This document shows, piece after piece, positions 8,863-43,530 of a stretch of 64,000 nt of DNA (the first letter of the stretch is position 1; each line of letters begins with the position of its first letter). The stretch lies in the NCBI RefSeq assembly GCF_024502345.1, contig NZ_JALDNN010000003.1; one strand, written 5' to 3'. The DNA comes from Escherichia coli (GTDB lineage Bacteria > Pseudomonadota > Gammaproteobacteria > Enterobacterales > Enterobacteriaceae). The translations under genes and the position numbers were made by a program. Under the pieces are notes generated by a model. That model did no database searches. It was not told the DNA's origin and was given only the letters and a program-made list of their open reading frames with translations.

Positions 8863-9087
8863 TTAATAATCACTTTCTTCCGGTTGCGGCTGGGTGACAA
8901 ACTGGTACTTCACCCCATTAGGGACGCCAACGGCTTTTGCTACAGATTCACACAGCAGCGACAGGTCATTCAGAGTCATCGGATATTCGATATCGACGGA
9001 ATATAAGGCCCCGGCGTTCTCGGCCTCTTCGATATTTTTATACTGGGCACTGAAAATGGCTATGGTAGAGATTTCAAGGTTATGCAT
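8863..9087 (-). CDS. hypothetical acidic protein, 74 aa, paralog of 14964-15188
   Basis: Shares the block EYPMTLNDLSLLCESVAKA and the overall length with the 14964-15188 ORF. Confidence 0.65.
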   Translation of the reverse strand: MHNLEISTIAIFSAQYKNIEEAENAGALYSVDIEYPMTLNDLSLLCESVAKAVGVPNGVKYQFVTQPQPEESDY

Positions 9088-12253: not shown

Positions 12254-12607
12254 CTACCAGTCACCACCTTCGATATGAAGTTGCGTCGCAGAAACAGCCA
12301 CCATTTCCTGCATTGGCTGGTCATGCTTGTTATGACTACTCCCAAGCAGTAGGCTCACCTTGCCGTTAGCGGAATAAAACATAGCATCAGGAAAATGCTC
12401 TCTGACTTCCCCCAGCAATGTGTGCATCGACTGAGTCAGTCGGTAGAATCGACGTGCGGCAGTCGGCATTGCATCATCAAGGAGATCTCCGGCGTCGCCG
12501 TCCCCGCTGTTTATGAAACTCAGTACCTTATCTTCGTCCATTCGAACCTCTTTTTCAGTCATGTCATATATATCCATTGAGATATCTGTCAGCCTGAGCA
12601 ACGACAT
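12254..12607 (-). CDS. hypothetical acidic protein, 117 aa
   Basis: ORF in the same-strand string. No motif recognised. Confidence 0.5.
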   Translation of the reverse strand: MSLLRLTDISMDIYDMTEKEVRMDEDKVLSFINSGDGDAGDLLDDAMPTAARRFYRLTQSMHTLLGEVREHFPDAMFYSANGKVSLLLGSSHNKHDQPMQEMVAVSATQLHIEGGDW

Positions 12608-12622
12608 CAGGCTGACCTTCGC

Positions 12623-13231
12623 TCACCCGGTAATAACGATGGCCTGTTCCAATTGTGGCTGGCGATCCCCCCGCAGCGCTACCGACTCCTGGAGGCGTGC
12701 GGAAGGCATCGTCATTGCCTTAAACCCCTCATCCCGCGAACGCACCAGCATCCCCCACGAATGGGTTTCACAGACATCGTTCTCGAAATTGGGTTCGGTC
12801 GACAGCAGTGATTCCATCTTCGGTTCGATGTGTACCGGCGCAATGTTTTTATAAACAGGGTGAACACGACACTGTTCAGACGCTTGTGCTCGGTAGCTCC
12901 CTTGCGCCAGCAGCACGTCATGGGAAACCAGGTCATAATCTGTATCTTCGACAAAAGTCTTCAGGGTGTGCGTTATTTTGCCGAATCCTTCGATATTCCA
13001 GACGGACACCATCGTAAACTCTTCAAACGCACGGGGACTTTTGACCAAAAATCCATTCAGCGCCCTACGCCCCTTCAGCATCCCCACCAGGTATTGCTTG
13101 TTGGGATAAGGGCGCATCGCAACAAGGTCATTACCAGTCAGGCGTAGCGACAGTTCCGGGACGCTTACGGAATCCAGCGTGCAAAGATTTCCCATCGGAT
13201 GCAGGATTTTTGGTACAAGGTGCAAAAACAT
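12623..13231 (-). CDS. hypothetical protein, 202 aa
   Basis: Strong RBS (GAGGAG) 7 nt upstream of the ATG. Confidence 0.6.
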   Translation of the reverse strand: MFLHLVPKILHPMGNLCTLDSVSVPELSLRLTGNDLVAMRPYPNKQYLVGMLKGRRALNGFLVKSPRAFEEFTMVSVWNIEGFGKITHTLKTFVEDTDYDLVSHDVLLAQGSYRAQASEQCRVHPVYKNIAPVHIEPKMESLLSTEPNFENDVCETHSWGMLVRSRDEGFKAMTMPSARLQESVALRGDRQPQLEQAIVITG

Positions 13232-13261
13232 CGGTATTCTCCTCGTTTATTAAGCCTTCAA

Positions 13262-13798
13262 TTATTGTGCCGTCGCCTGATGTATTTCGAACCAGAAGAC
13301 AACCGGCTTTTCCGTGACTTCAATTAACCCAAATCGCTCTGCGGTTCTGAAGTTGACGCTGTATGCCCTGGCGCGTTCTACCTGGCGGCTTATTTCTTTC
13401 CTCATGCCTTCAACACTTAATGCACCTTTAAAGAGATTGCAGGGGGCGCAAGCCGGAAAAAGATTTTCGATTGCATGCAGTTCAGGGTGCATGACCTTAC
13501 CGGTACTTCGAGCCCGGTGTGTCACTCGACTTCCAGCGGGGGCTCTGACCATTTCAAAATCCCGCCTCACCGGTTCAACATGATCGGCATGCCAGCCTTT
13601 TTCCGGCAAAGGACAGCCGCAGTAGGCACACCGACCGCCAAATTTCAAACGCAGTTCGGCTCGTTGCTCTTTGGATATTTTATTTTTTGGTTTTGAAAAT
13701 CGCCCATCATCAGATTCAACCTTCGGGAGGAGTTCTGAAAAATTGGGTAATTCGATTACTGCGCCTTTGTTATTTAGAACTTTCACCGGACCTCCCAA
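13262..13798 (-). CDS. HNH endonuclease-family protein, about 175 aa
   Basis: CAYCGCPL...WHADHVEPV...NLFPACAPCNLFKG is an HNH/Zn-ribbon pattern. The start is TTG at 13798 or GTG at 13786. Confidence 0.7.
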   Translation of the reverse strand: MGGPVKVLNNKGAVIELPNFSELLPKVESDDGRFSKPKNKISKEQRAELRLKFGGRCAYCGCPLPEKGWHADHVEPVRRDFEMVRAPAGSRVTHRARSTGKVMHPELHAIENLFPACAPCNLFKGALSVEGMRKEISRQVERARAYSVNFRTAERFGLIEVTEKPVVFWFEIHQATAQ

Positions 13799-13816
13799 CC
13801 ATATTAAGACGATTTT

Positions 13817-14128
13817 TTATTTATTTTCCTGAATTAGTTTTCGAATTTTAATCAGGTGTGGTCGGCTTAATTTGCATAGCTGTTCGGTCGCGGCATCCAG
13901 AGTGGGAAATACATGGGCCTCATTAATATCCAGTGTCCAGTATTTCGCTTTACCTTCTCCCAGATCAGATTCAAAGTAATTCCGCTTTACCCCAATCTGC
14001 TTTGGTCTTCCATTAATTCTGACGATTTCATGCCGCTCGTCGAAGATAAAACCCTCTCCGACCAACGTCAGGAGGACAAAAGGGCCCTCGGCCTTTTGCG
14101 TACCCAGCGAACTCATCTCATTATTCAT
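13817..14128 (-). CDS. hypothetical protein, 103 aa
   Basis: ATGA start/stop overlap with the upstream ASCH gene, and a GGGAGG RBS. Confidence 0.6.
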   Translation of the reverse strand: MNNEMSSLGTQKAEGPFVLLTLVGEGFIFDERHEIVRINGRPKQIGVKRNYFESDLGEGKAKYWTLDINEAHVFPTLDAATEQLCKLSRPHLIKIRKLIQENK

Positions 14129-14823
14129 ACGACCTCCCCGGTAATACGCTTAAAGTTGACGACCCAGACCCACGGGTTGGCCTGCCAACTGTCCTCGCCG
14201 TACGTGTTTTTCCAGAGGCTGCGGAAGCCAAGAAAGTGCTTATCGCCAAGAACACAACATTCTGTTGGTGCGCCTTCAGCTTTGGCATCTTCCTCGCTGA
14301 TGGTATTTAACCGCTCTACCCGCAAATCGGTAATTTCCAGTGCAATACGGCTGGCCCAGCGAGGCATATGGATTGAAGGTGTCCACGCACCTTCGAACTT
14401 CATATTTTCGGTACGAGGCTTCCAGTCGGCCTCATCAGGGATCGACCACAGCCCATAATCCCCCGACCGCTGTTCGCAGCTCGCCCGGTAAATGCGGGCT
14501 GCTTCAGTCCTGTCCATCACGATGTTGTCATTCCAGTCCACCGCGCACGCATCTTCATTCCCGAGCAATGAAAACGCCTCACGGACCGTAATGCGGTCGC
14601 CAACTACGCCGTACGGACAAGGCCGAAGCGCCGAGTATGGCTGGGTCCCTGTTGGAAGCCACCAGTCATGCGTGTGCCCGCGATGTCGCGGTGTTTGCGC
14701 AGGCCTTATAGACCATTCATCCGAACTATATTGAGGCTTTATAATCCGCCGCGTCTGTGTTTTCTGATCTGCCAGAATTGCCCGGACCATTTCATCATTA
14801 AAAAGCATTCCACGAGTCTTCAC
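14125..14823 (-). CDS. ASCH-domain (PUA-like fold) protein
   Basis: The N-terminal signature MLFNDEMVRAILADQKTQTRR is typical of phage/plasmid ASCH proteins. The GTG start at 14823 lies 8 nt after AAGGAG; ATG alternatives are at 14856 and 14808. Confidence 0.65.
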   Translation of the reverse strand: MKTRGMLFNDEMVRAILADQKTQTRRIIKPQYSSDEWSIRPAQTPRHRGHTHDWWLPTGTQPYSALRPCPYGVVGDRITVREAFSLLGNEDACAVDWNDNIVMDRTEAARIYRASCEQRSGDYGLWSIPDEADWKPRTENMKFEGAWTPSIHMPRWASRIALEITDLRVERLNTISEEDAKAEGAPTECCVLGDKHFLGFRSLWKNTYGEDSWQANPWVWVVNFKRITGEVV

Positions 14824-14963
14824 TGTGCTGACTCCTTTCACACATGGTTCACACATTGAGAGGCCTATCCCTCTTTATCAGCCAGGCATACCGAAACTGT
14901 CGGTAGTTTTACGGGAACGGGCAACTGCCCCCCTACCTGATAAAGTGGTGTTCTCCCCCAAAA

Positions 14964-15188
14964 TTAATCGTATTCCCCATCCACTACCGGCTCAGTCGTA
15001 ATTTCATATTTCACTCCGCCGGGTACATCCAACGCTTTAGCGACGGACTCACACAGCAATGACAAATCATTCAGGGTCATTGGGTATTCAACTTCCAGGC
15101 TGTGCAGTGCATTGGCGCTGGCAGCAGCAGCCTTGTCAGCATGACAGGCATTAAAAACGAAAACGGTGGTTTTTTCTTGAATAGGCAT
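14964..15188 (-). CDS. hypothetical acidic protein, 74 aa, paralog of 8863-9087
   Basis: Shares the EYPMTLNDLSLLCESVAKA block with 8863-9087. Confidence 0.65.
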   Translation of the reverse strand: MPIQEKTTVFVFNACHADKAAAASANALHSLEVEYPMTLNDLSLLCESVAKALDVPGGVKYEITTEPVVDGEYD

Positions 15189-15274
15189 AGTGCAATCCTC
15201 TGAATAATTAGCCCTGTGATCAGGGCGGTTTTTGATTAAATTTAAATGTTCGTTTTCAATAATTAGTGAATCTG

Positions 15275-15739
15275 TTAATCGGGTTGTGACTTATCATTTT
15301 CTCCAACCGAAGTGCTGTCGAGAAATGACCATTCTTGTTTGGGGCTTTTATATAATGCACTAGCCTCAGTACTCATCCACGACTCACAGGCTTTATAAGT
15401 CATGCCTTCCTCTCTAACGCGGTCCTTAAAATACGCCCAGGCTTGCAGATCAAGCGGCTGATACTCTTTCAGCGACTGGTCAAGCCTTTCCTTCCAGATT
15501 TTCTTCCGATGAGTAAAATGAGGAAAAGCCAGGAATGCATAACTACCTGCAACAAAAAAAAAGAACAGGAGTCCGCCCCATAGAGAATGTTTGAAAAACA
15601 CCAGTCCTGGGAAAATCCATGCCACAATGGCAACAAATAAAAGAAGGTGCTCCTTCCCAGTAGGTTTATTAAAATGCCAGGAAATTGCAATACACTTTAA
15701 TTTACTAAAGTGATTTTGTTTCTCCTTAATATCGGTCAT
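15275..15739 (-). CDS. membrane protein, 154 aa
   Basis: AAGGA RBS, and two hydrophobic helices in the N-terminal half. Confidence 0.6.
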   Translation of the reverse strand: MTDIKEKQNHFSKLKCIAISWHFNKPTGKEHLLLFVAIVAWIFPGLVFFKHSLWGGLLFFFFVAGSYAFLAFPHFTHRKKIWKERLDQSLKEYQPLDLQAWAYFKDRVREEGMTYKACESWMSTEASALYKSPKQEWSFLDSTSVGENDKSQPD

Positions 15740-15784
15740 ATATCAGTCCTTACTTATAAAAAAATGGTTATTATTAGTCTGATG

Positions 15785-15799
15785 TAAAAGTTACTTTTC
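15785..15799. promoter_or_regulatory. GAAAAGTWACTTTTC box (1 mismatch, TAAAAGTTACTTTTC)
   Basis: 46 bp upstream of the 15739 start and 120 bp downstream of the dndC-like stop. Confidence 0.55.
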
Positions 15800-15921
15800 A
15801 AAACAGTCCCTTTAACGAATTCCGCACCTGCGCTCATTACAACACACACCATTCGGCGCTTTTTCCGTTAACGGGGCTATTTTCACGTTTTTTGCACGTA
15901 TGTCTGATTTTGCTGGTGGGC

Positions 15922-18297
15922 TCACGCCAGCAGGCGGACCATACGTTTCAACAGAGGCCTTAACAACGCCGCCGTCCTCTCCCGGCATTCATCCACATGC
16001 CGGAACCCCGTCTTTTTCGAAGACTGGGGGCCGGATAACATCCGCAGCTCCCAGATGACTTCCCGTAAGGTTCCTTCGCGCTCCGGCGAAATACACCCGG
16101 CTAATGTCTCCAGAAAGCGTTTTCTTACGGCCCGGTAATACAGACGTTCTTCCGGTTGCTGTGACGAAATCCGCAGGTTACAGAGGGTCAGGACAGCGTC
16201 AAGAGTCCTTGCCTTCAGTTCGTCTCCCGTCCGGGCCAGATGTAGCTGTTGTTCTGTCTCCAGTTGCGTCGTTATCCACCCCCCCAGAGGGGTTTTGTTG
16301 TAGGTGTGCAGTGCCACACAGGCCGCAACACAACACCAGAAGCGCAGTTTCTGCCGCTGCCCCCGCAGTTTGCGGGCTACGAGCAAGCGATAATCGCTGT
16401 CGGTCAGGATCTTGAAACGGCGGCTGGCGAGCAGAGACGGCAGCGGCGTCTGGTCGTTAATGCCAAGACGTGAATAGGCCTGCCCGCGTTGAGCGAGTCG
16501 ATGGTACACCGCACCTTTCCCCCGCGAAATTCGGACGGCGCCGTATCTAAGCAGGTACTGTGCCGCCGCCACAGGGGTAAACTCACCGTCAGACACACGC
16601 TGGCGTAATCCGTCATATTCATGCCAGATAATCCAGGATGCCGTGTCTTCATCGACCGTCAGCTCATCCTCTTCTTCGAATGCAACGATGTTCAGGCCTT
16701 CCCCGCTACTCATCAGACTGCGGGAAGCTCGCTCATCCTCCCGACCGTCAAAATAGGCTATTTCGGATGACGGATCGGACAGCCCGTCAAATGACGTCCC
16801 GATACGGCCTTCCGGCAACTTCATCCAGCGTGGTGCTGGCATCGGCGTGCGGGGTACTGGTTGCATAGCTGGCTCATCGTCGAGAAGATCCAGTGCCCCC
16901 CCTTCCCACACCTGGCGGTAAAGTTCAATGGCACGAAATGGGCGCGGGTTAAAGCAATGCAGTGACCAGAGAAAGTCGATATGCAGCACGTTAGCCTCCT
17001 GCACCAGTCGAAACTGCGGCTCCGACATGCGGCGGTTATGCGCGGTATCTTCGATCTCGCCTGAAAGTAACTTTTCATGCACCGCTGCGGCCCGCTGAGC
17101 CTCCACGTAATCGAGGCTGCAACAGATATGGAACAGTCTTTCGGTCAGGGACGACGAGAACACATTGGGCTGAAGACGCACATACCCGCCCTCAAACACT
17201 TTGCGTCCGATATAATCCCGAAGGCTCCAGTCGTACTGAATTTTGGTCAGGAAACGCTGAAGGCGGTTGAGACCAGCCTGGTAGCCGTACTTCTCAGGGT
17301 CAGTGCGGAGTAAGGTTTCCATCGAGTGATCAATGCCGACGGCGCAGCATAGCGAGCATCCATAGCGAGCGCCGCAGGCAGAAGACCGGACAGTGGATTT
17401 CTCCGGCGTCCAGATACATTCCCCGGTCGCGTCTTTGTAAAGCGTGGCGAGGCTGAAGTTGTCCGGCAAAAAGCTTGGCAGCGGAAATCGCGCCAGAGAA
17501 CCACAGGCCATCAGAAATGACCAGATATCCTGTGCCCGCCACTCTTTCACCGGGTACAGTTCGCCGCCGTGCTCCGTGAGCGAGACGCTGTCCGCCTGCC
17601 CGCCCATTCTTAGGATGTTGTCTGCCCGACGGGCGCTCTCATCATCGCGGGAACCCAGCATCAGGCACACTTTGTTGCGGACAGAAGCAGGTGCATTTTT
17701 CAGATAACGGGCTTTGGCCTGGCGCAGTGGAGAACGCTTTAGATCTGTAGCGCATTGACGCGTAGAAGAATTTGTCCAGGTTGGAAGTCCACGCCCGGTC
17801 AGAATGCGTCCGACCCAGCTCTGGGTCATGGACGGGCGGGCCACAAGGACGGTCAAAGGCAGTTCTTGTTCGGCAATAAAGGCTCTGAGCTGGCTGAGAA
17901 CCTGCGTGGCCTGATGATGCATCTCAGGGTTTTCAATCAGGGTGTCAGACATCTGAATGAAGTGGTGCTGGCTGACGTTCGACCCGTTTCGTACTGCACG
18001 GATCAAGGCCATAAGGAACAAGTGCAGTAGCGAGTGAGAGTCTTTCCCGCCGCTGTAGCCGACGCACATGGTCCAGCCTTCGGTAATCGCATGATAAATG
18101 GCACTGGTTGCCGTCGTCACGCGCGAAGCGAGACTGATCGGCTCACCGGCATCAGTATAATTCAGATCCGCATCGGTCTTCAGTGTCTGCCAGACATCGC
18201 CCCATTTATCCTGCGTCAGAATGGCAGCGTTAGCCGCCTCAGAAAATTGAATTTCTGAGGGTAATTCAAGGAATGTTTCTTTCATTTCGATATACAT
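15922..18297 (-). CDS. DndC-like PP-loop ATP pyrophosphatase (PAPS-reductase superfamily) with a long unknown C-terminal extension, about 791 aa
   Basis: PP-loop motif CVGYSGGKDSHS plus the cysteine cluster CGARYGCSLCCAVGIDHSME, as in DndC. The start is set at the ATG 6 nt after AGGA; the track ORF starts at 18351. Confidence 0.7.
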   Translation of the reverse strand: MYIEMKETFLELPSEIQFSEAANAAILTQDKWGDVWQTLKTDADLNYTDAGEPISLASRVTTATSAIYHAITEGWTMCVGYSGGKDSHSLLHLFLMALIRAVRNGSNVSQHHFIQMSDTLIENPEMHHQATQVLSQLRAFIAEQELPLTVLVARPSMTQSWVGRILTGRGLPTWTNSSTRQCATDLKRSPLRQAKARYLKNAPASVRNKVCLMLGSRDDESARRADNILRMGGQADSVSLTEHGGELYPVKEWRAQDIWSFLMACGSLARFPLPSFLPDNFSLATLYKDATGECIWTPEKSTVRSSACGARYGCSLCCAVGIDHSMETLLRTDPEKYGYQAGLNRLQRFLTKIQYDWSLRDYIGRKVFEGGYVRLQPNVFSSSLTERLFHICCSLDYVEAQRAAAVHEKLLSGEIEDTAHNRRMSEPQFRLVQEANVLHIDFLWSLHCFNPRPFRAIELYRQVWEGGALDLLDDEPAMQPVPRTPMPAPRWMKLPEGRIGTSFDGLSDPSSEIAYFDGREDERASRSLMSSGEGLNIVAFEEEDELTVDEDTASWIIWHEYDGLRQRVSDGEFTPVAAAQYLLRYGAVRISRGKGAVYHRLAQRGQAYSRLGINDQTPLPSLLASRRFKILTDSDYRLLVARKLRGQRQKLRFWCCVAACVALHTYNKTPLGGWITTQLETEQQLHLARTGDELKARTLDAVLTLCNLRISSQQPEERLYYRAVRKRFLETLAGCISPEREGTLREVIWELRMLSGPQSSKKTGFRHVDECRERTAALLRPLLKRMVRLLA

Positions 18298-18473
18298 ATT
18301 ATTTCCTGAATTTGGCTTTCGCTGTATTGTCGCGATATTTATTAAATCCATTTAATATCTTCAGCGCAATATGTGAAGCTAAAAATAGTTAAATTGAAAT
18401 CATGCCAATTTAATTAAATAACACTGAACAAATAAAATTACGCGGCAATAAATATATTATGTTCTCCACGCTC

Positions 18474-20321: not shown

Positions 20322-20654
20322 TCAGCCCTGTAAACCCGGACAGGTATCAACGTAGCTCATTGGTTTGCCGATCGCGGCGCTCAGGCGAAGGATTTCGCCG
20401 ATGGAGACGTACCGAAGCATTTCCGAACGCCCGTGTTTCTGGTATTCATCCACCGACATAGTGCGCCAGTCCTTGTGCGGTGCGGTTTTGCACAACTGCC
20501 AGTTGTCGGCAGTGGTCGGGCGACGCAGGACATATACACCCAGCGAAGGCGTGAGGCCACTGCCGAATGCCTGCTCCACCACAATACGTACTTCAGAGCC
20601 GTCGGGGCGTTTCAGTGTCTGAGTAATTTTAGTAATGAGCTGTTCGGATTCCAT
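20322..20654 (-). CDS. hypothetical protein, 110 aa
   Basis: ORF with a TTATTAG-family promoter 40-70 nt upstream. Confidence 0.55.
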   Translation of the reverse strand: MESEQLITKITQTLKRPDGSEVRIVVEQAFGSGLTPSLGVYVLRRPTTADNWQLCKTAPHKDWRTMSVDEYQKHGRSEMLRYVSIGEILRLSAAIGKPMSYVDTCPGLQG

Positions 20655-41182: not shown

Positions 41183-42346
41183 TCATTTAAGCCTGTGCTG
41201 GGGGGGGGGGGCGGATTGCGGTTCTCCGCCATTTTTATCGTTTTTCTTGGTTTTGTAAGTCACTTTTTCCCCTTTCAATCGGGCTTGCCGATTTTCGGCC
41301 CGGCGAAGCTGCTTGTTTTCTGATTCCGTAATCTCACTTTGCAGGTTCTTGAGCATCTCCAACATGCTCCGGTTCAGCGTAAAGGTAATTTCTTCATCTT
41401 CGCTGGAGTCGGTCACCTCCGGCAACTCGATATCACCGAGTTTCTGCAATAGACTCGTCGTAATGAGTTTGACCCCTTCGACGGCTTTTGTAGCGAGAAC
41501 TGGTGGAACACGTGCGGGTTTAAAATCGGAAGGGACAACACGGATCTGCCCGCGTGGCGTTTTCTTAATCTGGATACCGCTTGAATCAGCCTTTTCAAGG
41601 TCTGCGATCATCTTTTCGATCCGCGCAACAGCTTCCGTTTCACCGAACTCATCGATAAGGGACAGGACTGCTACATAGGAAATGGCATCGGCATGGATCA
41701 GTTTTTTGAGATAGACACAGCAGCCGGTCAAGCGAATAAGAGCAGCAATGGTGGTATTACTTTTTCCCTCACGTTCGGCAATACGGTCAAGCGACCATCC
41801 ACCCAGCGCCTGAAGACGTCGGTAGGATTCACCCAAAGCCACAGGAGAAAGAGCTAGGCCACGGTTTCCGTCAATCGTTGTCAGTTCGCAGCTGATCTCA
41901 TCGGCTTTCATCTCGATGCAAAGAATGGTGAGGTTAGAATGCCCTTCTGCCACAGCCATCAAAGCAGCCTTTAAACGGCAATGTCCCTGGCGAACGTACG
42001 GAATGCCGTCTTTGATCAGAACGCGGATAGGGTCTACGTAATCACCCCGGATGTACGCATTCTTGATGTTATTGAGATGATCGGCGACTTCTGGCAACTG
42101 GTAATAAGCTTCCCCCATTCCCATCTCACGGGAGTTGAATCCTTCCGTGATTTGAACCACGGTTGGGCTGATAGCCCATGCTTTCTGTTCAGTGACTTCA
42201 TTACAAAGGTCAGGGTTCGCGTCGCGGAACTGCTTCATACCACTGACGAATCGGCCGGAACCGGTCACTGTTGAAAAAGACACGAGTGGGGATTTAAAGA
42301 CCCGTGAGTTAGTTTGCTGTTGGGAATCAGTCATCAGATCACTCAT
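41183..42346 (-). CDS. ParB/Srx-fold (KorB-like) protein, paralog 2, 387 aa
   Basis: GFNSREMGMGEAYYQLPEVADHLNNIKNAY...RQGHCRLKAA plus an HTH-like region. Homolog of 1572-2777 and 45571-46647. Confidence 0.8.
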   Translation of the reverse strand: MSDLMTDSQQQTNSRVFKSPLVSFSTVTGSGRFVSGMKQFRDANPDLCNEVTEQKAWAISPTVVQITEGFNSREMGMGEAYYQLPEVADHLNNIKNAYIRGDYVDPIRVLIKDGIPYVRQGHCRLKAALMAVAEGHSNLTILCIEMKADEISCELTTIDGNRGLALSPVALGESYRRLQALGGWSLDRIAEREGKSNTTIAALIRLTGCCVYLKKLIHADAISYVAVLSLIDEFGETEAVARIEKMIADLEKADSSGIQIKKTPRGQIRVVPSDFKPARVPPVLATKAVEGVKLITTSLLQKLGDIELPEVTDSSEDEEITFTLNRSMLEMLKNLQSEITESENKQLRRAENRQARLKGEKVTYKTKKNDKNGGEPQSAPPPQHRLK

Positions 42347-42705
42347 AGATACTCCGTTGAATTCTTTTTTGTCATACCTTTCATCTGTGCGTGAATACTA
42401 CCGGAAAAAAAAATCTCACTTTTTCGTTAAAAAGGTACTTTTTGGGTCTATTCCGAATTGAACGAGGAAAATTGTTCTGGCGATCAGAACAAAAAGAAAA
42501 AATAAATCAAATAAAACAGATGGTTATGGTTAATTCGTAAAGGATAAACTTTTTTCTGAGAAGTGAAAAAAAATTAAAAAATGTGTCGAAATGACAATCT
42601 CGTTAACAAAAGCCACGTTTTTTCCTGCTCATACCTTATTGGTAGCAATCCGCCTTTCGGTACCATAAGTGTGGCATACCGATAAAGCTGAACGGAGAAG
42701 ACTCG

Positions 42706-43530
42706 TTGCGAAAACATACACCAATCATCAAATGGGCGGGGGGTAAAACCAAACTGATGCCGTTCCTCAGTAAGCACTTCCCACATGATAAGAGCCGACG
42801 CTGGGTTGAACCGTTTATCGGCGGTGGCGCCGTGTTTCTGAACATGTTTGCCACCGAGGCTCTCCTGGCAGACAGCAACCCGGACCTAATCAATCTGTAC
42901 CGCAACATACAGCGAAATAAACCGGCATTCATCAGAGAAGTGCAGCTGCTGGCGGAAAGGCATTTTGAAGAAGAGGATTACTACGTGCTGCGGAATACCT
43001 TTAACAGCACCAGTTTTGATGATGCCCCGCTACAACGAGCAGCCATTTTCTACGCGATGAATCGACTCGGATATAACGGTCTGTGTCGTTACAACTTGAA
43101 GCGAAAGTTCTCAGTTCCATGGGGAAAGCGATACCAGTTCAGTCTGGATATCCAGAAGGTTGATTACCTCTCATTCAGGCTTTCGAGCGTTGAATTGAAA
43201 ACCGCAGATTTTGGTCAGACGCTGGAGTTTGCAGGTGGTGGTGACCAAATATATTGCGATCCGCCATATGACAAAATCAGTAAAACCAGCTTTGTAAGCT
43301 ATGATGGTATACCGTTCGATAAGAGCGCACATGTTAAACTGGCGGATATGCTGGTGGATGCTAATCGTAAAGGGGCCTCAGTGGCCATATCCAACAGCAT
43401 GACTCCCTTTACGCTGGAGCTCTATGAAGAACGCGGTTTTGATATTCATACTCACAACGCTTATCGGTCTGTCGGCAGTCAATCAAAGTCGCGTAAGAAG
43501 GAAATAGAAATTCTGGCCGTCCTTCGTTGA
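42706..43530 (+). CDS. dam: Dam-family DNA adenine methyltransferase, 274 aa
   Basis: PIIKWAGGK near the N-terminus and the catalytic DPPY. TTG start 9 nt after GGAG. Confidence 0.85.
   Translation: MRKHTPIIKWAGGKTKLMPFLSKHFPHDKSRRWVEPFIGGGAVFLNMFATEALLADSNPDLINLYRNIQRNKPAFIREVQLLAERHFEEEDYYVLRNTFNSTSFDDAPLQRAAIFYAMNRLGYNGLCRYNLKRKFSVPWGKRYQFSLDIQKVDYLSFRLSSVELKTADFGQTLEFAGGGDQIYCDPPYDKISKTSFVSYDGIPFDKSAHVKLADMLVDANRKGASVAISNSMTPFTLELYEERGFDIHTHNAYRSVGSQSKSRKKEIEILAVLR

What the first reader, a model, noticed from the sequence alone, without database searches (positions are those of the whole stretch)
12254..18297. Orphan 790-aa DndC-like PP-loop enzyme upstream of an ASCH / HNH gene cluster: possible DNA- or RNA-modification module
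The ORF at 15922-18297 carries the PP-loop SGGKDS and the cysteine cluster CGARYGCSLCC...DHSME, both characteristic of DndC (sulfur insertion into DNA) within the PAPS-reductase superfamily.

It differs from known systems in three ways:
- It is about 250-300 residues longer than typical DndC, with an unrecognisable C-terminal half.
- No dndA/B/D/E, ssp or ibrB-type partner is adjacent.
- No restriction (dndFGH-like) genes are present.

Separated from it by a palindromic box and two small genes, the same strand encodes an ASCH protein. That gene is translationally coupled (ATGA) to a 103-aa ORF, followed by an HNH nuclease and three unknown ORFs.

PAPS-reductase/ParB, ASCH and HNH genes co-occur in predicted nucleic-acid modification neighbourhoods of phages and plasmids. 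No such function is established for this arrangement, and a role in self-marking, anti-restriction or exclusion is conjecture.
Basis: partly seen in the sequence, partly recalled or inferred. Interest (0 to 1): 0.65.

Follow-up and report, generated by a model that had tools for sequence, protein, structure and literature searches.

The report
Solitary DndC-like enzyme of big plasmids
A well-conserved but unstudied enzyme, related to the one that puts sulfur into the DNA backbone, is carried without its usual partners by the IncHI1 plasmid and by many other large, mostly conjugative plasmids. The ASCH and HNH genes beside it are lineage-specific neighbours, not parts of one machine.

Summary
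The window is an IncHI1 plasmid, 99.9% identical to pHCM1. All genes of the finding lie on the minus strand.

**What is confirmed**
- ORF 15922-18297 encodes 791 aa and carries every DndC hallmark: the SGGKDS PP-loop, and Cys182/294/308/314/317 aligned to conserved DndC cysteines.
- It scores far below the DndC equivalog cut-off (114 vs 290 bits).
- Only residues 55-350 are homologous to DndC.
- Residues 351-630 occur in only 229 clusters among 1.84 billion representatives. Residues 631-791 form a basic helical tail that evolves faster.
- No solved structure matches the C-terminal half.

**Distribution**
- tblastn hits fall in 2,795 of 72,556 plasmid records, weak DndC-only hits included; 1,756 cover at least 80% of the protein.
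- Carriers include IncHI1, IncHI2, IncC, pQBR57 and 390-580 kb Pseudomonas plasmids.
- The gene is under purifying selection and sits in one-directional arrays of small genes, with orphan methyltransferases in four lineages.

**The neighbours**
- The 243-aa neighbour has an ASCH fold, and the HNH call is real.
- These neighbours are shared only with IncHI2, which lacks the ASCH gene, and were absent from nine other lineages.

**Verdict**
The DndC-like call is supported; the "module" is not. Most likely this is a self-contained sulfur-type nucleic-acid modification enzyme serving plasmid establishment. That function is inferred, not shown.

The parts
15922..18297 (-). Gene for the 791-aa solitary DndC-family protein (stop codon 15922-15924). 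This is the conserved unit of the finding.
   Evidence: ORF list. RefSeq CDS WP_000275146.1 in pHCM1. AGGA Shine-Dalgarno before the ATG at 18297. AF2 model with pLDDT 91.2 and pTM 0.81. pN/pS 0.09/0.71 (res 30-350) and 0.14/0.71 (res 351-625) against IncHI2.
17158..18135 (-). Residues about 55-380: the DndC-homologous PP-loop and Fe-S core.
18037..18054 (-). PP-loop motif SGGKDS (residues 82-87).
   Evidence: Invariant within the family apart from one position (G83) and identical in canonical DndC.
17323..17418 (-). Cysteine cluster, residues 294-325: GEC...SACGARYGCSLCC..DHS. Together with Cys182 (17752-17754) it aligns to the conserved DndC cysteines.
   Evidence: Column-by-column alignment with nine canonical DndC proteins. 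In the 33-sequence family alignment C182, C314 and C317 are invariant and C294 and C308 at least 90% conserved; in the 78-sequence joint alignment only C314 and C317 stay invariant.
16408..17157 (-). Residues 381-630: family-specific middle module of mixed helices and strands.
   Evidence: Conserved in all 580-860-aa relatives. Found in only 229 clusters at 50% identity among 1.84e9 representatives; in full-length proteins it follows about 300 N-terminal residues, and shorter hits are fragments. No Pfam hit. hhalign against the DndC C-terminus gives probability 0.3%. No PDB fold match.
15925..16407 (-). Residues 631-791: basic helical tail (pI 9.9, net charge +12). It is variable, and it is absent or replaced in the 580-670-aa relatives.
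   Evidence: Alignment. AF2 helices 633-790. Charge calculation. Faster evolution, pN 0.295.
15275..15739 (-). 154-aa ORF with two hydrophobic stretches. A neighbour, not part of the conserved unit.
   Evidence: ORF and translation. No family hit. Absent from the IncHI2 locus.
14964..15188 (-). 74-aa ORF, a neighbour. It has a paralog at 8863-9087.
   Evidence: Translations. 70% ortholog and a second copy in IncHI2.
14125..14856 (-). 243-aa ASCH-fold protein of a phage family (RefSeq start 14823). A neighbour, not conserved with the DndC-like gene.
   Evidence: phrog_874 E 6e-77. Matches in 341 phage records. Some homologs are named 'ASCH domain-containing' by NCBI. The top 10 Foldseek PDB hits, and 16 of the top 18, are ASCH-family structures: 3s9x E 7e-5, YqfB TMt 0.74. 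Model pLDDT is only 63.5. No Pfam ASCH hit.
13817..14128 (-). 103-aa ORF overlapping the ASCH stop codon by ATGA.
   Evidence: Sequence. phrog_30913 E 5.5e-36. 69% ortholog in IncHI2 without an ASCH gene upstream.
13262..13798 (-). 178-aa HNH endonuclease (RefSeq start 13786).
   Evidence: Pfam HNH 22.3 bits vs cut-off 21.4. phrog_2118 E 2.9e-54. 79% ortholog in IncHI2.
12623..13231 (-). 202-aa DUF6012 protein.
   Evidence: PF19475 109.9 bits. 60% ortholog in IncHI2.
12254..12607 (-). 117-aa ORF (RefSeq start 12562).
   Evidence: phrog_27273 E 1.6e-26. Not found near the IncHI2 locus.

Best explanation
The 791-aa protein is an autonomous member of the DndC clade of PP-loop ATP pyrophosphatases and a backbone accessory gene of large, mostly conjugative plasmids.

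**Shown**
- It keeps the ATP-binding PP-loop and the conserved cysteines of DndC.
- It carries a family-specific 250-aa middle module and a basic helical tail in place of the DndC C-terminus.
- It has no DndA, DndD or DndE partner.

**Inferred mechanism**
- It assembles a [4Fe-4S] cluster.
- It takes sulfur from the host cysteine desulfurase IscS.
- It uses ATP to activate a phosphate or carbonyl oxygen on nucleic acid, most probably a DNA backbone phosphate as DndC does, and replaces that oxygen with sulfur.
- Its own C-terminal modules supply the substrate binding that DndD and DndE provide in Dnd systems.

**Inferred role**
It acts as an orphan modification function, analogous to the orphan methyltransferases encoded nearby in several lineages. 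It would help the plasmid establish itself in new hosts or escape restriction.

The ASCH-fold, 103-aa, HNH, DUF6012 and 117-aa genes downstream are neighbours specific to the IncHI lineage; four of them match phage protein families. They are not components of the same system.
For: **Identity**
- NCBIfam DndC E 8e-33 and PRK06850 E 4e-37.
- PADLOC DndC E 2e-37. A PADLOC type II methyltransferase model (PDLC03333) also matches residues 81-355 at E 4.5e-23.
- hhalign against canonical DndC: probability 100%.
- The motifs SGGKDS, DT-VENP, GRG-P, R-C, LG-R-ES-R, GEC, SCG-RFGC-C and DKSM all align.

**A real, constrained gene**
- pN/pS is 0.089/0.710 and 0.136/0.714 against IncHI2 for residues 30-350 and 351-625.
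- The AF2 model has pLDDT 91.2.

**Autonomy**
- tblastn hits fall in 2,795 plasmid records, 2,160 of them conjugative. That count includes weak DndC-only matches; 1,756 records cover at least 80% of the query. There is essentially no presence in phages.
- No neighbour is conserved across 11 lineages.

**Context**
- In most loci examined the gene sits in a long one-directional array of small genes. Orphan DNA methyltransferases lie nearby in four lineages: dcm in IncC, a site-specific MTase in IncHI2, an N6 MTase in Cupriavidus, and an N6 MTase plus an Antirestrict-family (PF03230) gene in the 669-aa lineage.
- The IncHI1 array shares DUF3085 with the IncL array that holds an antirestriction gene and ssb, and it also holds DUF957, DUF905, hok and RelE genes.

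**From the literature**
- IscS substitutes for DndA in E. coli and Salmonella Dnd systems (PMC10853773, PMC11662687).
- Orphan methyltransferases are enriched in plasmid leading regions (PMC11541004).
- In pQBR plasmids a PAPS-reductase-domain gene is the most diverged gene between two near-identical plasmids (PMC4989453). The family occurs in pQBR57.
Against: - No biochemical or genetic datum exists for any member. The full-text searches used here found only the passing pQBR mention.
- Every characterised phosphorothioation system needs an ATPase partner (DndD or SspC) and a DNA-binding partner (DndE or SspB). None is present here.
- The claim that the C-terminal modules replace those partners is pure inference. 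They match no known DNA-binding fold.
- The score is far below the DndC equivalog cut-off, 113.9 vs 290.4 bits.
- The substrate could be RNA or something else.
- Whether this array is the region that enters the recipient first in MOBH plasmids was not established.
- In-frame-deleted and truncated alleles occur in some plasmids, so the gene is dispensable for maintenance there.
Confidence: 0.4

Rival explanations
1. The DndC-like enzyme, the ASCH protein, the 103-aa protein and the HNH nuclease form one multi-gene nucleic-acid modification, restriction or exclusion module. The DndC-like enzyme would mark DNA or RNA, and the ASCH and HNH proteins would read or cut it.
For: All genes are co-directional within 6 kb. 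HNH and DUF6012 stay downstream of the ortholog in IncHI2. According to PMC10853773, Dnd modification neighbourhoods encode other nucleases, and ASCH is described there as a domain that binds modified DNA.
Against: The ASCH-like, 154-aa and 117-aa genes are missing from the IncHI2 locus. None of the downstream genes lies within 7-9 kb of the DndC-like gene in nine other lineages. IncHI1/IncHI2 synteny extends over the whole backbone, upstream genes included, so it says nothing specific. The ASCH-like, 103-aa, HNH and 117-aa proteins belong to phage protein families. Two unrelated genes and intergenic gaps of about 180 and 140 bp separate the enzyme gene from the ASCH gene.
Confidence: 0.08
2. 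The enzyme acts on a substrate other than DNA. It might thiolate tRNA or rRNA, as the [4Fe-4S] PP-loop enzymes TtcA, TtuA and NcsA do. Or it might adenylate and modify a small molecule or protein, as other PP-loop enzymes do. Either way it would reprogram the host rather than mark the plasmid.
Against: Sequence affinity is much stronger to DndC (E about 1e-33 to 1e-37) than to any tRNA-modifying family (E 0.006). The cysteine pattern is the DndC one. A PADLOC model labelled type II methyltransferase matches the same domain at E 4.5e-23; if that model derives from MTase fusions carrying this domain, it links the clade to DNA, but this was not checked. In several lineages the genomic company is DNA methyltransferases and an antirestriction gene.
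Confidence: 0.2
3. The protein does not work alone. It needs a partner supplied in trans, or it interferes with host phosphorothioation. Candidate partners are a DndB/ParB-type protein as in IbrA-IbrB pairs, or the Dnd proteins of a Dnd-positive host. Interference could come from sequestering IscS, DndD or DndE. The role would then be regulatory or dominant-negative rather than a new modification.
For: The 626-669-aa relatives have a Pfam DndB gene (154.7 bits) at most 450 bp upstream. DndB-like DGQHR genes are common in plasmid leading-region arrays.
Against: No DndB-like gene lies next to the gene in IncHI1, IncHI2, IncC, Kluyvera, Pseudomonas, Cupriavidus, Burkholderia or Vibrio loci. Catalytic motifs are under strong purifying selection, which a mere decoy would not need.
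Confidence: 0.12
4. It is an ordinary metabolic PAPS/APS reductase (CysH) for sulfate assimilation, carried as cargo.
Against: There is no ECG[LI]H catalytic motif. The DndC-type cysteine cluster is present. The protein is 791 aa, against 203-227 residues for the PAPS/APS reductase chains matched. The PDB matches cover only about 180 residues. HMM affinity is to DndC.
Confidence: 0.01

Closest known systems
DndC (DptC), the PP-loop / [4Fe-4S] sulfurtransferase of DndABCDE DNA phosphorothioation systems
   Same: The PP-loop SGGKDS and all conserved core motifs align, including Cys182, 294, 308, 314 and 317 on the conserved DndC cysteines. hhalign probability is 100% over about 300 residues.
   Different: The score is well below the equivalog cut-off, 114 vs 290 bits. 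There are no dndA/B/D/E or dndFGH genes. The C-terminal 440 residues are not homologous to the DndC C-terminus. The protein is 240-350 aa longer. It is a plasmid backbone gene rather than part of a chromosomal defence island.
IbrA/IbrB-type and DndB-linked DndC-like pairs (PAPS-reductase-like protein plus ParB-superfamily partner)
   Same: A DndC-like PP-loop protein outside a full Dnd operon. The 626-669-aa members of this very family have a DndB gene just upstream.
   Different: The IncHI1 protein has no ParB/DndB-type neighbour, and it carries an extra basic helical tail. From my own recollection, untested here, IbrA is about 400 aa and lacks the middle module.
SspD of the SspABCD single-strand phosphorothioation system and BrxP of type 4 BREX
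   Same: Both are PAPS-reductase-superfamily PP-loop proteins used in DNA modification or defence.
   Different: The BrxP match is only weak, 21 bits. No Ssp model matched at E 0.01 or better. No sspABC or BREX genes are nearby.
Orphan DNA methyltransferases of plasmid leading regions (PMC11541004)
   Same: Solitary modification enzymes without a cognate nuclease. They sit in one-directional arrays of small genes on conjugative plasmids, and in four lineages examined they lie within about 5 kb of the DndC-like gene.
   Different: The chemistry differs entirely: PP-loop and Fe-S rather than SAM methyl transfer. An anti-restriction role has been shown for some methyltransferases but is only inferred here.

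Membership tests
DndC (DNA phosphorothioation sulfurtransferase, TIGR03183) | PP-loop ATP pyrophosphatase motif SGGKDS | tested here: met
   Residues 82-87. Invariant in the family apart from G83, and identical in nine canonical DndC proteins.
DndC (DNA phosphorothioation sulfurtransferase, TIGR03183) | Cysteines that ligate the [4Fe-4S] cluster plus the sulfur-relay cysteines | tested here: met
   C182, C294, C308, C314 and C317 align with conserved DndC cysteines. C280 of DndC is reported as indispensable for the cluster (PMC11662687). By spacing I take C314 as its counterpart, but this was not verified against the reference numbering. Cluster binding itself was not tested.
DndC (DNA phosphorothioation sulfurtransferase, TIGR03183) | Full-length match to the equivalog HMM above its curated cut-off | tested here: not met
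   113.9 bits against a cut-off of 290.4. Only model positions 7-302 of 447 are matched. hhalign covers only residues 55-350. The C-termini are unrelated, probability 0.3%.
DndC (DNA phosphorothioation sulfurtransferase, TIGR03183) | Operon association with dndD and dndE (usually also dndA/dndB) | tested here: not met
   None among the neighbours scanned or in the pHCM1 annotation inspected. None in ten other lineages; two have dndB only.
DndC (DNA phosphorothioation sulfurtransferase, TIGR03183) | Produces phosphorothioate linkages in DNA | not testable with these tools
   Needs LC-MS/MS of DNA digests, or iodine-cleavage mapping.
Assimilatory PAPS/APS reductase (CysH) | C-terminal catalytic ECG[LI]H motif and a size of roughly 200-270 aa | tested here: not met
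   Motif absent and the protein is 791 aa. Pfam PAPS_reduct is only 25.6 bits.
IbrA/IbrB-type pair | Adjacent ParB-superfamily (IbrB/DndB) gene | tested here: not met
   No ParB/DndB hit for the upstream 170-aa and 268-aa proteins or any downstream ORF. The feature is met in the 626-669-aa relatives.
BrxP (BREX type 4) | Strong match to BrxP and neighbouring BREX genes | tested here: not met
   21.1 bits, E 1.8e-5, on the PP-loop domain only. No BREX genes in the annotation.
ASCH domain (243-aa neighbour) | Match to the Pfam ASCH sequence model | tested here: not met
   No ASCH hit even at E up to 10. A PDB sequence profile found nothing.
ASCH domain (243-aa neighbour) | ASCH/PUA-like beta-barrel fold | tested here: met
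   The top 10 Foldseek PDB hits, and 16 of the top 18, are ASCH-family structures: 3s9x E 7e-5, YqfB 9kyh TMt 0.74, PH0355, ZmASCH. Caveat: model pLDDT is 63.5, with two large low-confidence insertions.
HNH endonuclease (178-aa neighbour) | HNH beta-beta-alpha-metal motif with flanking CxxC pairs | tested here: met
   Pfam HNH 22.3 bits vs cut-off 21.4. phrog_2118 'HNH endonuclease' E 2.9e-54. CAYCGC...HADH...N...CAPCN is visible in the translation.

The most novel reading that the evidence does not exclude
A single-polypeptide nucleic-acid sulfur-modification enzyme. In this reading a DndC-type catalytic core became self-sufficient through its own C-terminal substrate-binding modules. It would write phosphorothioate, or a new sulfur mark, on plasmid or host DNA without DndD/DndE. 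The IncHI1, IncHI2, IncC and large Pseudomonas plasmids would carry it as an epigenetic anti-restriction or establishment device.
Probability: 0.2. Interest if true: 0.8.

Novelty: new variant of a known kind. Interest (0 to 1): 0.5.

Why it matters
IncHI1, IncHI2, IncC and the large Pseudomonas plasmids are among the main vehicles of multidrug resistance. tblastn hits to this gene fall in about 4% of all catalogued plasmids (weak DndC-only matches included), and 2.4% carry a near-full-length match. The gene is under purifying selection, yet only one passing mention of it turned up in the searchable literature.

If it writes a sulfur mark on DNA by itself, two things would follow. It would be the first phosphorothioation-type enzyme that works without the DndD/DndE or SspB/SspC partners. 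It would also add a new class of orphan modification, beside methyltransferases, to the means by which plasmids get past host defences.

The question can be tested directly, with one knockout and one mass-spectrometry run on strains that already exist.

Tried and rejected
**Sequence and fold searches on the C-terminal half**
- Pfam on residues about 440-791 alone, and on all 33 family members: nothing beyond PAPS_reduct.
- PDB sequence search with the whole protein: only FAD synthase, on the PP-loop.
- The AFDB50 fold library was unavailable. I therefore could not test whether residues 351-630 resemble the C-terminal domain of DndC models.
- hhalign of the two C-terminal halves: probability 0.3%.

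**ASCH tests**
- The sequence-level tests failed. Only the fold search worked.

**Palindromic box**
- Not above chance.

**DndB test**
- The upstream 268-aa protein is not DndB-like.

**Literature**
- Nine full-text searches. The terms covered IncHI1 or IncC plus PAPS reductase, 'DndC-like', leading region plus PAPS reductase, and conjugative plasmid plus PAPS reductase.
- They gave no functional study, only the passing pQBR remark.

**Considered and set aside**
- That the array is the plasmid's leading region. The gene content resembles leading regions. The minus-strand orientation would fit transfer starting at the Tra1 oriT and running through traI.
- The direction of transfer for this MOBH plasmid was not established, so I do not claim it.

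Full report
**Where the window comes from.** The stretch 12254-18400 is 99.9% identical over its full length to Salmonella Typhi CT18 plasmid pHCM1 (NC_003384, 7995-14141) and to more than 200 other IncHI1-type plasmids. All genes of the finding are on the minus strand. RefSeq annotates them as 'phosphoadenosine phosphosulfate reductase family protein', hypothetical proteins, an HNH protein and a DUF6012 protein.

**The observation.**
- ORF 15922-18297 encodes 791 aa. An AGGA Shine-Dalgarno sequence sits 7 nt before the ATG at 18297, the start RefSeq also uses.
- SGGKDS is at residues 82-87 and CGARYGCSLCC..DHSME at 308-327.
- The ATGA overlap between the 243-aa ORF and the 103-aa ORF is real.
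- The 'palindromic box' reduces to a 10-bp palindrome (CCGTTAACGG, 15865-15874) and a 6-bp hairpin at 15211-15226. No inverted repeat of 12 nt or more was found, and terminator-like sites number 11 against 8.8 ± 3.3 in shuffles.
- Inside the stated range two ORFs, not three, follow HNH. One of them is DUF6012.

**What the large protein is.**
- Pfam gives only a borderline PAPS_reduct hit, 25.6 bits against a cut-off of 22.5.
- NCBIfam puts it nearest PRK06850 (E 4e-37) and the DndC equivalog TIGR03183 (E 8e-33, 113.9 bits against a cut-off of 290.4).
- PADLOC gives DndC at E 2e-37, BrxP only weakly, and a model labelled type II methyltransferase (PDLC03333) at E 4.5e-23 over the same domain.
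- A profile of 33 family members aligns to a profile of nine canonical DndC proteins with probability 100% and E 2.5e-46, but only over query residues 55-350.
- All conserved DndC motifs are in register. These include Cys182 (R-x-C), Cys294 (GEC), Cys308 (SCG) and Cys314/Cys317 (RFGC-x-x-C).
- The literature describes a [4Fe-4S] centre held by three cysteines plus a cysteine dyad in DndC, with C280 indispensable (PMC10853773, PMC11662687).
- The CysH motif ECG[LI]H is absent.
- The catalytic core is therefore of DndC type, not metabolic.

**The C-terminal 440 residues.**
- AlphaFold2 with a 78-sequence alignment gives a confident model, pLDDT 91.2 and pTM 0.81.
- Nothing specific matches residues 351-791.
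- No Pfam family covers the C-terminal region.
- hhalign of residues 345-640 against the C-terminal half of DndC gives probability 0.3%.
- The family alignment shows two layers. Residues 351-630 are conserved in all 580-860-aa relatives. A helical tail, 631-791, is variable, and is missing or replaced in the 580-670-aa forms. The tail is basic, pI 9.9 and net charge +12.
- An exhaustive HMMER scan of 1.84 billion representatives with residues 350-791 found only 229 clusters at E 0.001 or better. In full-length proteins of 560-900 aa the match lies at about residues 300-650; the shorter hits are fragments.
- The middle module is thus a signature of this one family.

**The gene is functional and constrained.** Against the IncHI2 ortholog (75% identity), pN/pS is 0.089/0.710 for residues 30-350. 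It is 0.136/0.714 for residues 351-625 and 0.295/0.914 for the tail; synonymous sites are saturated. A minority of plasmids carry inactivated alleles. P0008 has an in-frame deletion of about residues 154-346. P0020 and P0022 are N-terminally truncated forms starting 'MIRII', possibly through IS insertion. The gene is therefore accessory, not essential for maintenance.

**Distribution.**
- tblastn finds hits in 2,795 of 72,556 PLSDB records, 2,160 of them predicted conjugative. This count includes weak hits to canonical DndC genes; 1,756 records hold a match covering at least 80% of the protein.
- Carriers include IncHI1 (99% identity or more), IncHI2 (about 75%) and IncC (48%).
- Further carriers are a Kluyvera MOBH plasmid, Moellerella, Vibrio, Burkholderia and Cupriavidus plasmids, pQBR57, and Pseudomonas plasmids of roughly 390-580 kb.
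- It is essentially absent from phage genomes.

**Genomic context.**
- In IncC the gene lies in a long co-directional array with a DNA cytosine methyltransferase, a 5'-deoxynucleotidase and a toprim protein.
- In IncHI2 a site-specific methyltransferase lies about 3 kb upstream. In Cupriavidus an N6 methylase lies about 4.7 kb upstream.
- In the 669-aa forms, on 68-78 kb plasmid contigs, the gene lies with an N6 methyltransferase and an Antirestrict-family (PF03230) gene.
- In the 626-aa and 669-aa forms a full-length Pfam DndB gene (154.7 bits) lies at most 450 bp upstream.
- No DndA, DndD or DndE appears anywhere. No neighbour is shared across lineages.
- In pHCM1 the gene belongs to a minus-strand array. 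It runs from the end of the Tra1 transfer region (about 211 kb) through the origin of the record to about 19 kb, and holds DUF905, hok, DUF957, DUF3085 and RelE genes.
- An IncL plasmid array with an antirestriction gene and ssb also holds DUF3085 and DUF4942 genes.
- Whether the IncHI1 array enters the recipient first was not established.

**The neighbours.**
- The 243-aa protein matches phrog_874 (E 6e-77). It has homologs in 341 phage records and in many enterobacterial prophages, some named 'ASCH domain-containing' or 'morphogenetic protein' by their sources.
- Sequence models do not detect ASCH.
- A moderate AlphaFold model (pLDDT 63.5, core strands about 80) retrieves ASCH-family structures as its top 10 PDB hits and as 16 of the top 18. 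Among them are 3s9x at E 7e-5 and the ac4C amidohydrolase YqfB at TMt 0.74.
- HNH is supported by Pfam, just above the cut-off, and by phrog_2118 at E 3e-54.
- A local tblastn of 14 window proteins against 14 loci around DndC-like homologs tested linkage. Only IncHI2 shares neighbours: the 268-aa and 170-aa upstream proteins and the 74-aa, 103-aa, HNH and DUF6012 proteins. It lacks the ASCH-like, 154-aa and 117-aa genes.
- No other lineage shares any downstream neighbour. The IncHI1/IncHI2 synteny is backbone-wide and thus uninformative. The 'module' is not supported.

**How it most likely works.**
- Shown: a DndC-type PP-loop and cysteine core, family-specific C-terminal modules, solitary occurrence, purifying selection, and the company of methyltransferase and antirestriction genes in several lineages.
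- Established elsewhere: DndC has ATP pyrophosphatase activity and a [4Fe-4S] cluster, and IscS can replace DndA in E. coli and Salmonella (PMC10853773, PMC11662687). Orphan methyltransferases are enriched in plasmid leading regions (PMC11541004).
- Inferred: the protein assembles a cluster, receives sulfur from host IscS and uses ATP to activate an oxygen on nucleic acid. That oxygen is most probably a DNA backbone phosphate, which it replaces with sulfur. The middle module and basic tail would do the substrate handling that DndD and DndE do in Dnd systems. The role would be an orphan modification aiding establishment or escape from restriction.
- One paper notes that a PAPS-reductase-domain gene is the most diverged gene between two otherwise near-identical pQBR plasmids (PMC4989453). 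I did not verify that this gene belongs to the family. If it does, the observation would fit a gene engaged in conflict.
- I put 0.4 on this whole chain, and about 0.9 on the identity part alone (autonomous DndC-clade enzyme, plasmid backbone, not a CysH).

**Rivals.**
- A non-DNA substrate such as tRNA: 0.2.
- Dependence on a DndB-type or host Dnd partner, or a dominant-negative role: 0.12.
- A metabolic PAPS reductase: 0.01.

**Novelty.** The protein cannot be filed as DndC. It fails the equivalog cut-off, the operon context and the homology of the C-terminal half. It is a distinct, coherent, widespread family with a DndC-type core, for which I found no functional study. I rate it a new variant of a known kind, with interest 0.5. 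The object is ordinary in the sense that it is a long-annotated backbone gene. The absence of every known partner, together with its wide distribution in clinically important plasmids, makes a simple and decisive experiment worthwhile.

Noticed in passing
L010:6470-7558 and L012:6870-7955 (relatives); no counterpart in the window: The 626-669-aa members of the family have a full-length DndB (PF14072, 154.7 bits) gene at most 450 bp upstream. The long forms with the basic helical tail (IncHI1, IncHI2, IncC) have none. The tail and DndB may therefore be alternatives. Only a few lineages were checked.
   Followed up: partly
L018:5980-7263 (IncL plasmid) and hits H91-H101: Solitary DndB-like DGQHR genes match in 1,071 plasmid records. 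In the IncL plasmid inspected the gene lies in an array with antirestriction and ssb genes and no DndC-like gene within 6 kb. In the roughly 63.6-kb plasmids (H92-H98) it is interrupted by IS1B.
   Followed up: partly
window 14964-15188 and 8863-9087 (both minus strand): Two 74-aa paralogs share the stretch EYPMTLNDLSLLCESVAKA. IncHI2 also has two copies (L004 11653-11850 and 16851-17039). No family assignment.
   Followed up: partly
window 20322-20654 (minus strand): A 110-aa protein lies 2 kb upstream of the DndC-like gene in IncHI1 and IncHI2. It has a 60% identical homolog directly upstream of the DndC-like gene in Kluyvera plasmid pKATP1 (L009 6555-6854). It is the only neighbour seen outside the IncHI clade. 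A weak Pfam hint points to DUF488-N3a (E 0.07).
   Followed up: partly
window 15922-18297: The gene is a G+C-rich patch: 56.4% against 48% in both flanks, with GC3 63%. The same excess of 3-7 points is seen in IncHI2, Kluyvera, Moellerella and the short-form plasmids, but not in Pseudomonas, Cupriavidus or Burkholderia.
   Followed up: partly
proteins P0008, P0020, P0022 (other plasmids): Inactivated alleles recur. One is an in-frame deletion of about residues 154-346, which removes the cysteine cluster. Others are N-terminally truncated forms starting 'MIRII...', which may reflect IS insertion. Together they represent some 150 member sequences. In several Enterobacter plasmids of 290-370 kb the match covers only residues 313-788.
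   Followed up: partly
window about 1-23200 (pHCM1 211.4 kb through the record origin to 18.9 kb): A long array transcribed from the minus strand abuts the end of the Tra1 transfer genes. It holds DUF905, a Hok toxin, DUF957, DUF3085, RelE/ParE and many small unknown genes. DUF3085 also occurs in the IncL array that holds antirestriction and ssb genes. A Dam-family methyltransferase lies at window about 41910-42734. The direction of DNA transfer was not determined.
   Followed up: partly
PADLOC model PDLC03333: A PADLOC model labelled type II methyltransferase matches residues 81-355 at E 4.5e-23, model positions 33-303 of 544. This suggests that fusions of this PP-loop domain to DNA methyltransferases exist. 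The fusions themselves were not retrieved.
   Followed up: no
window 15275-15739 (minus strand): A 154-aa ORF with two hydrophobic stretches, probably a small membrane protein, lies between the DndC-like gene and the 74-aa gene. It matches no family in any library and is absent from the IncHI2 locus.
   Followed up: no
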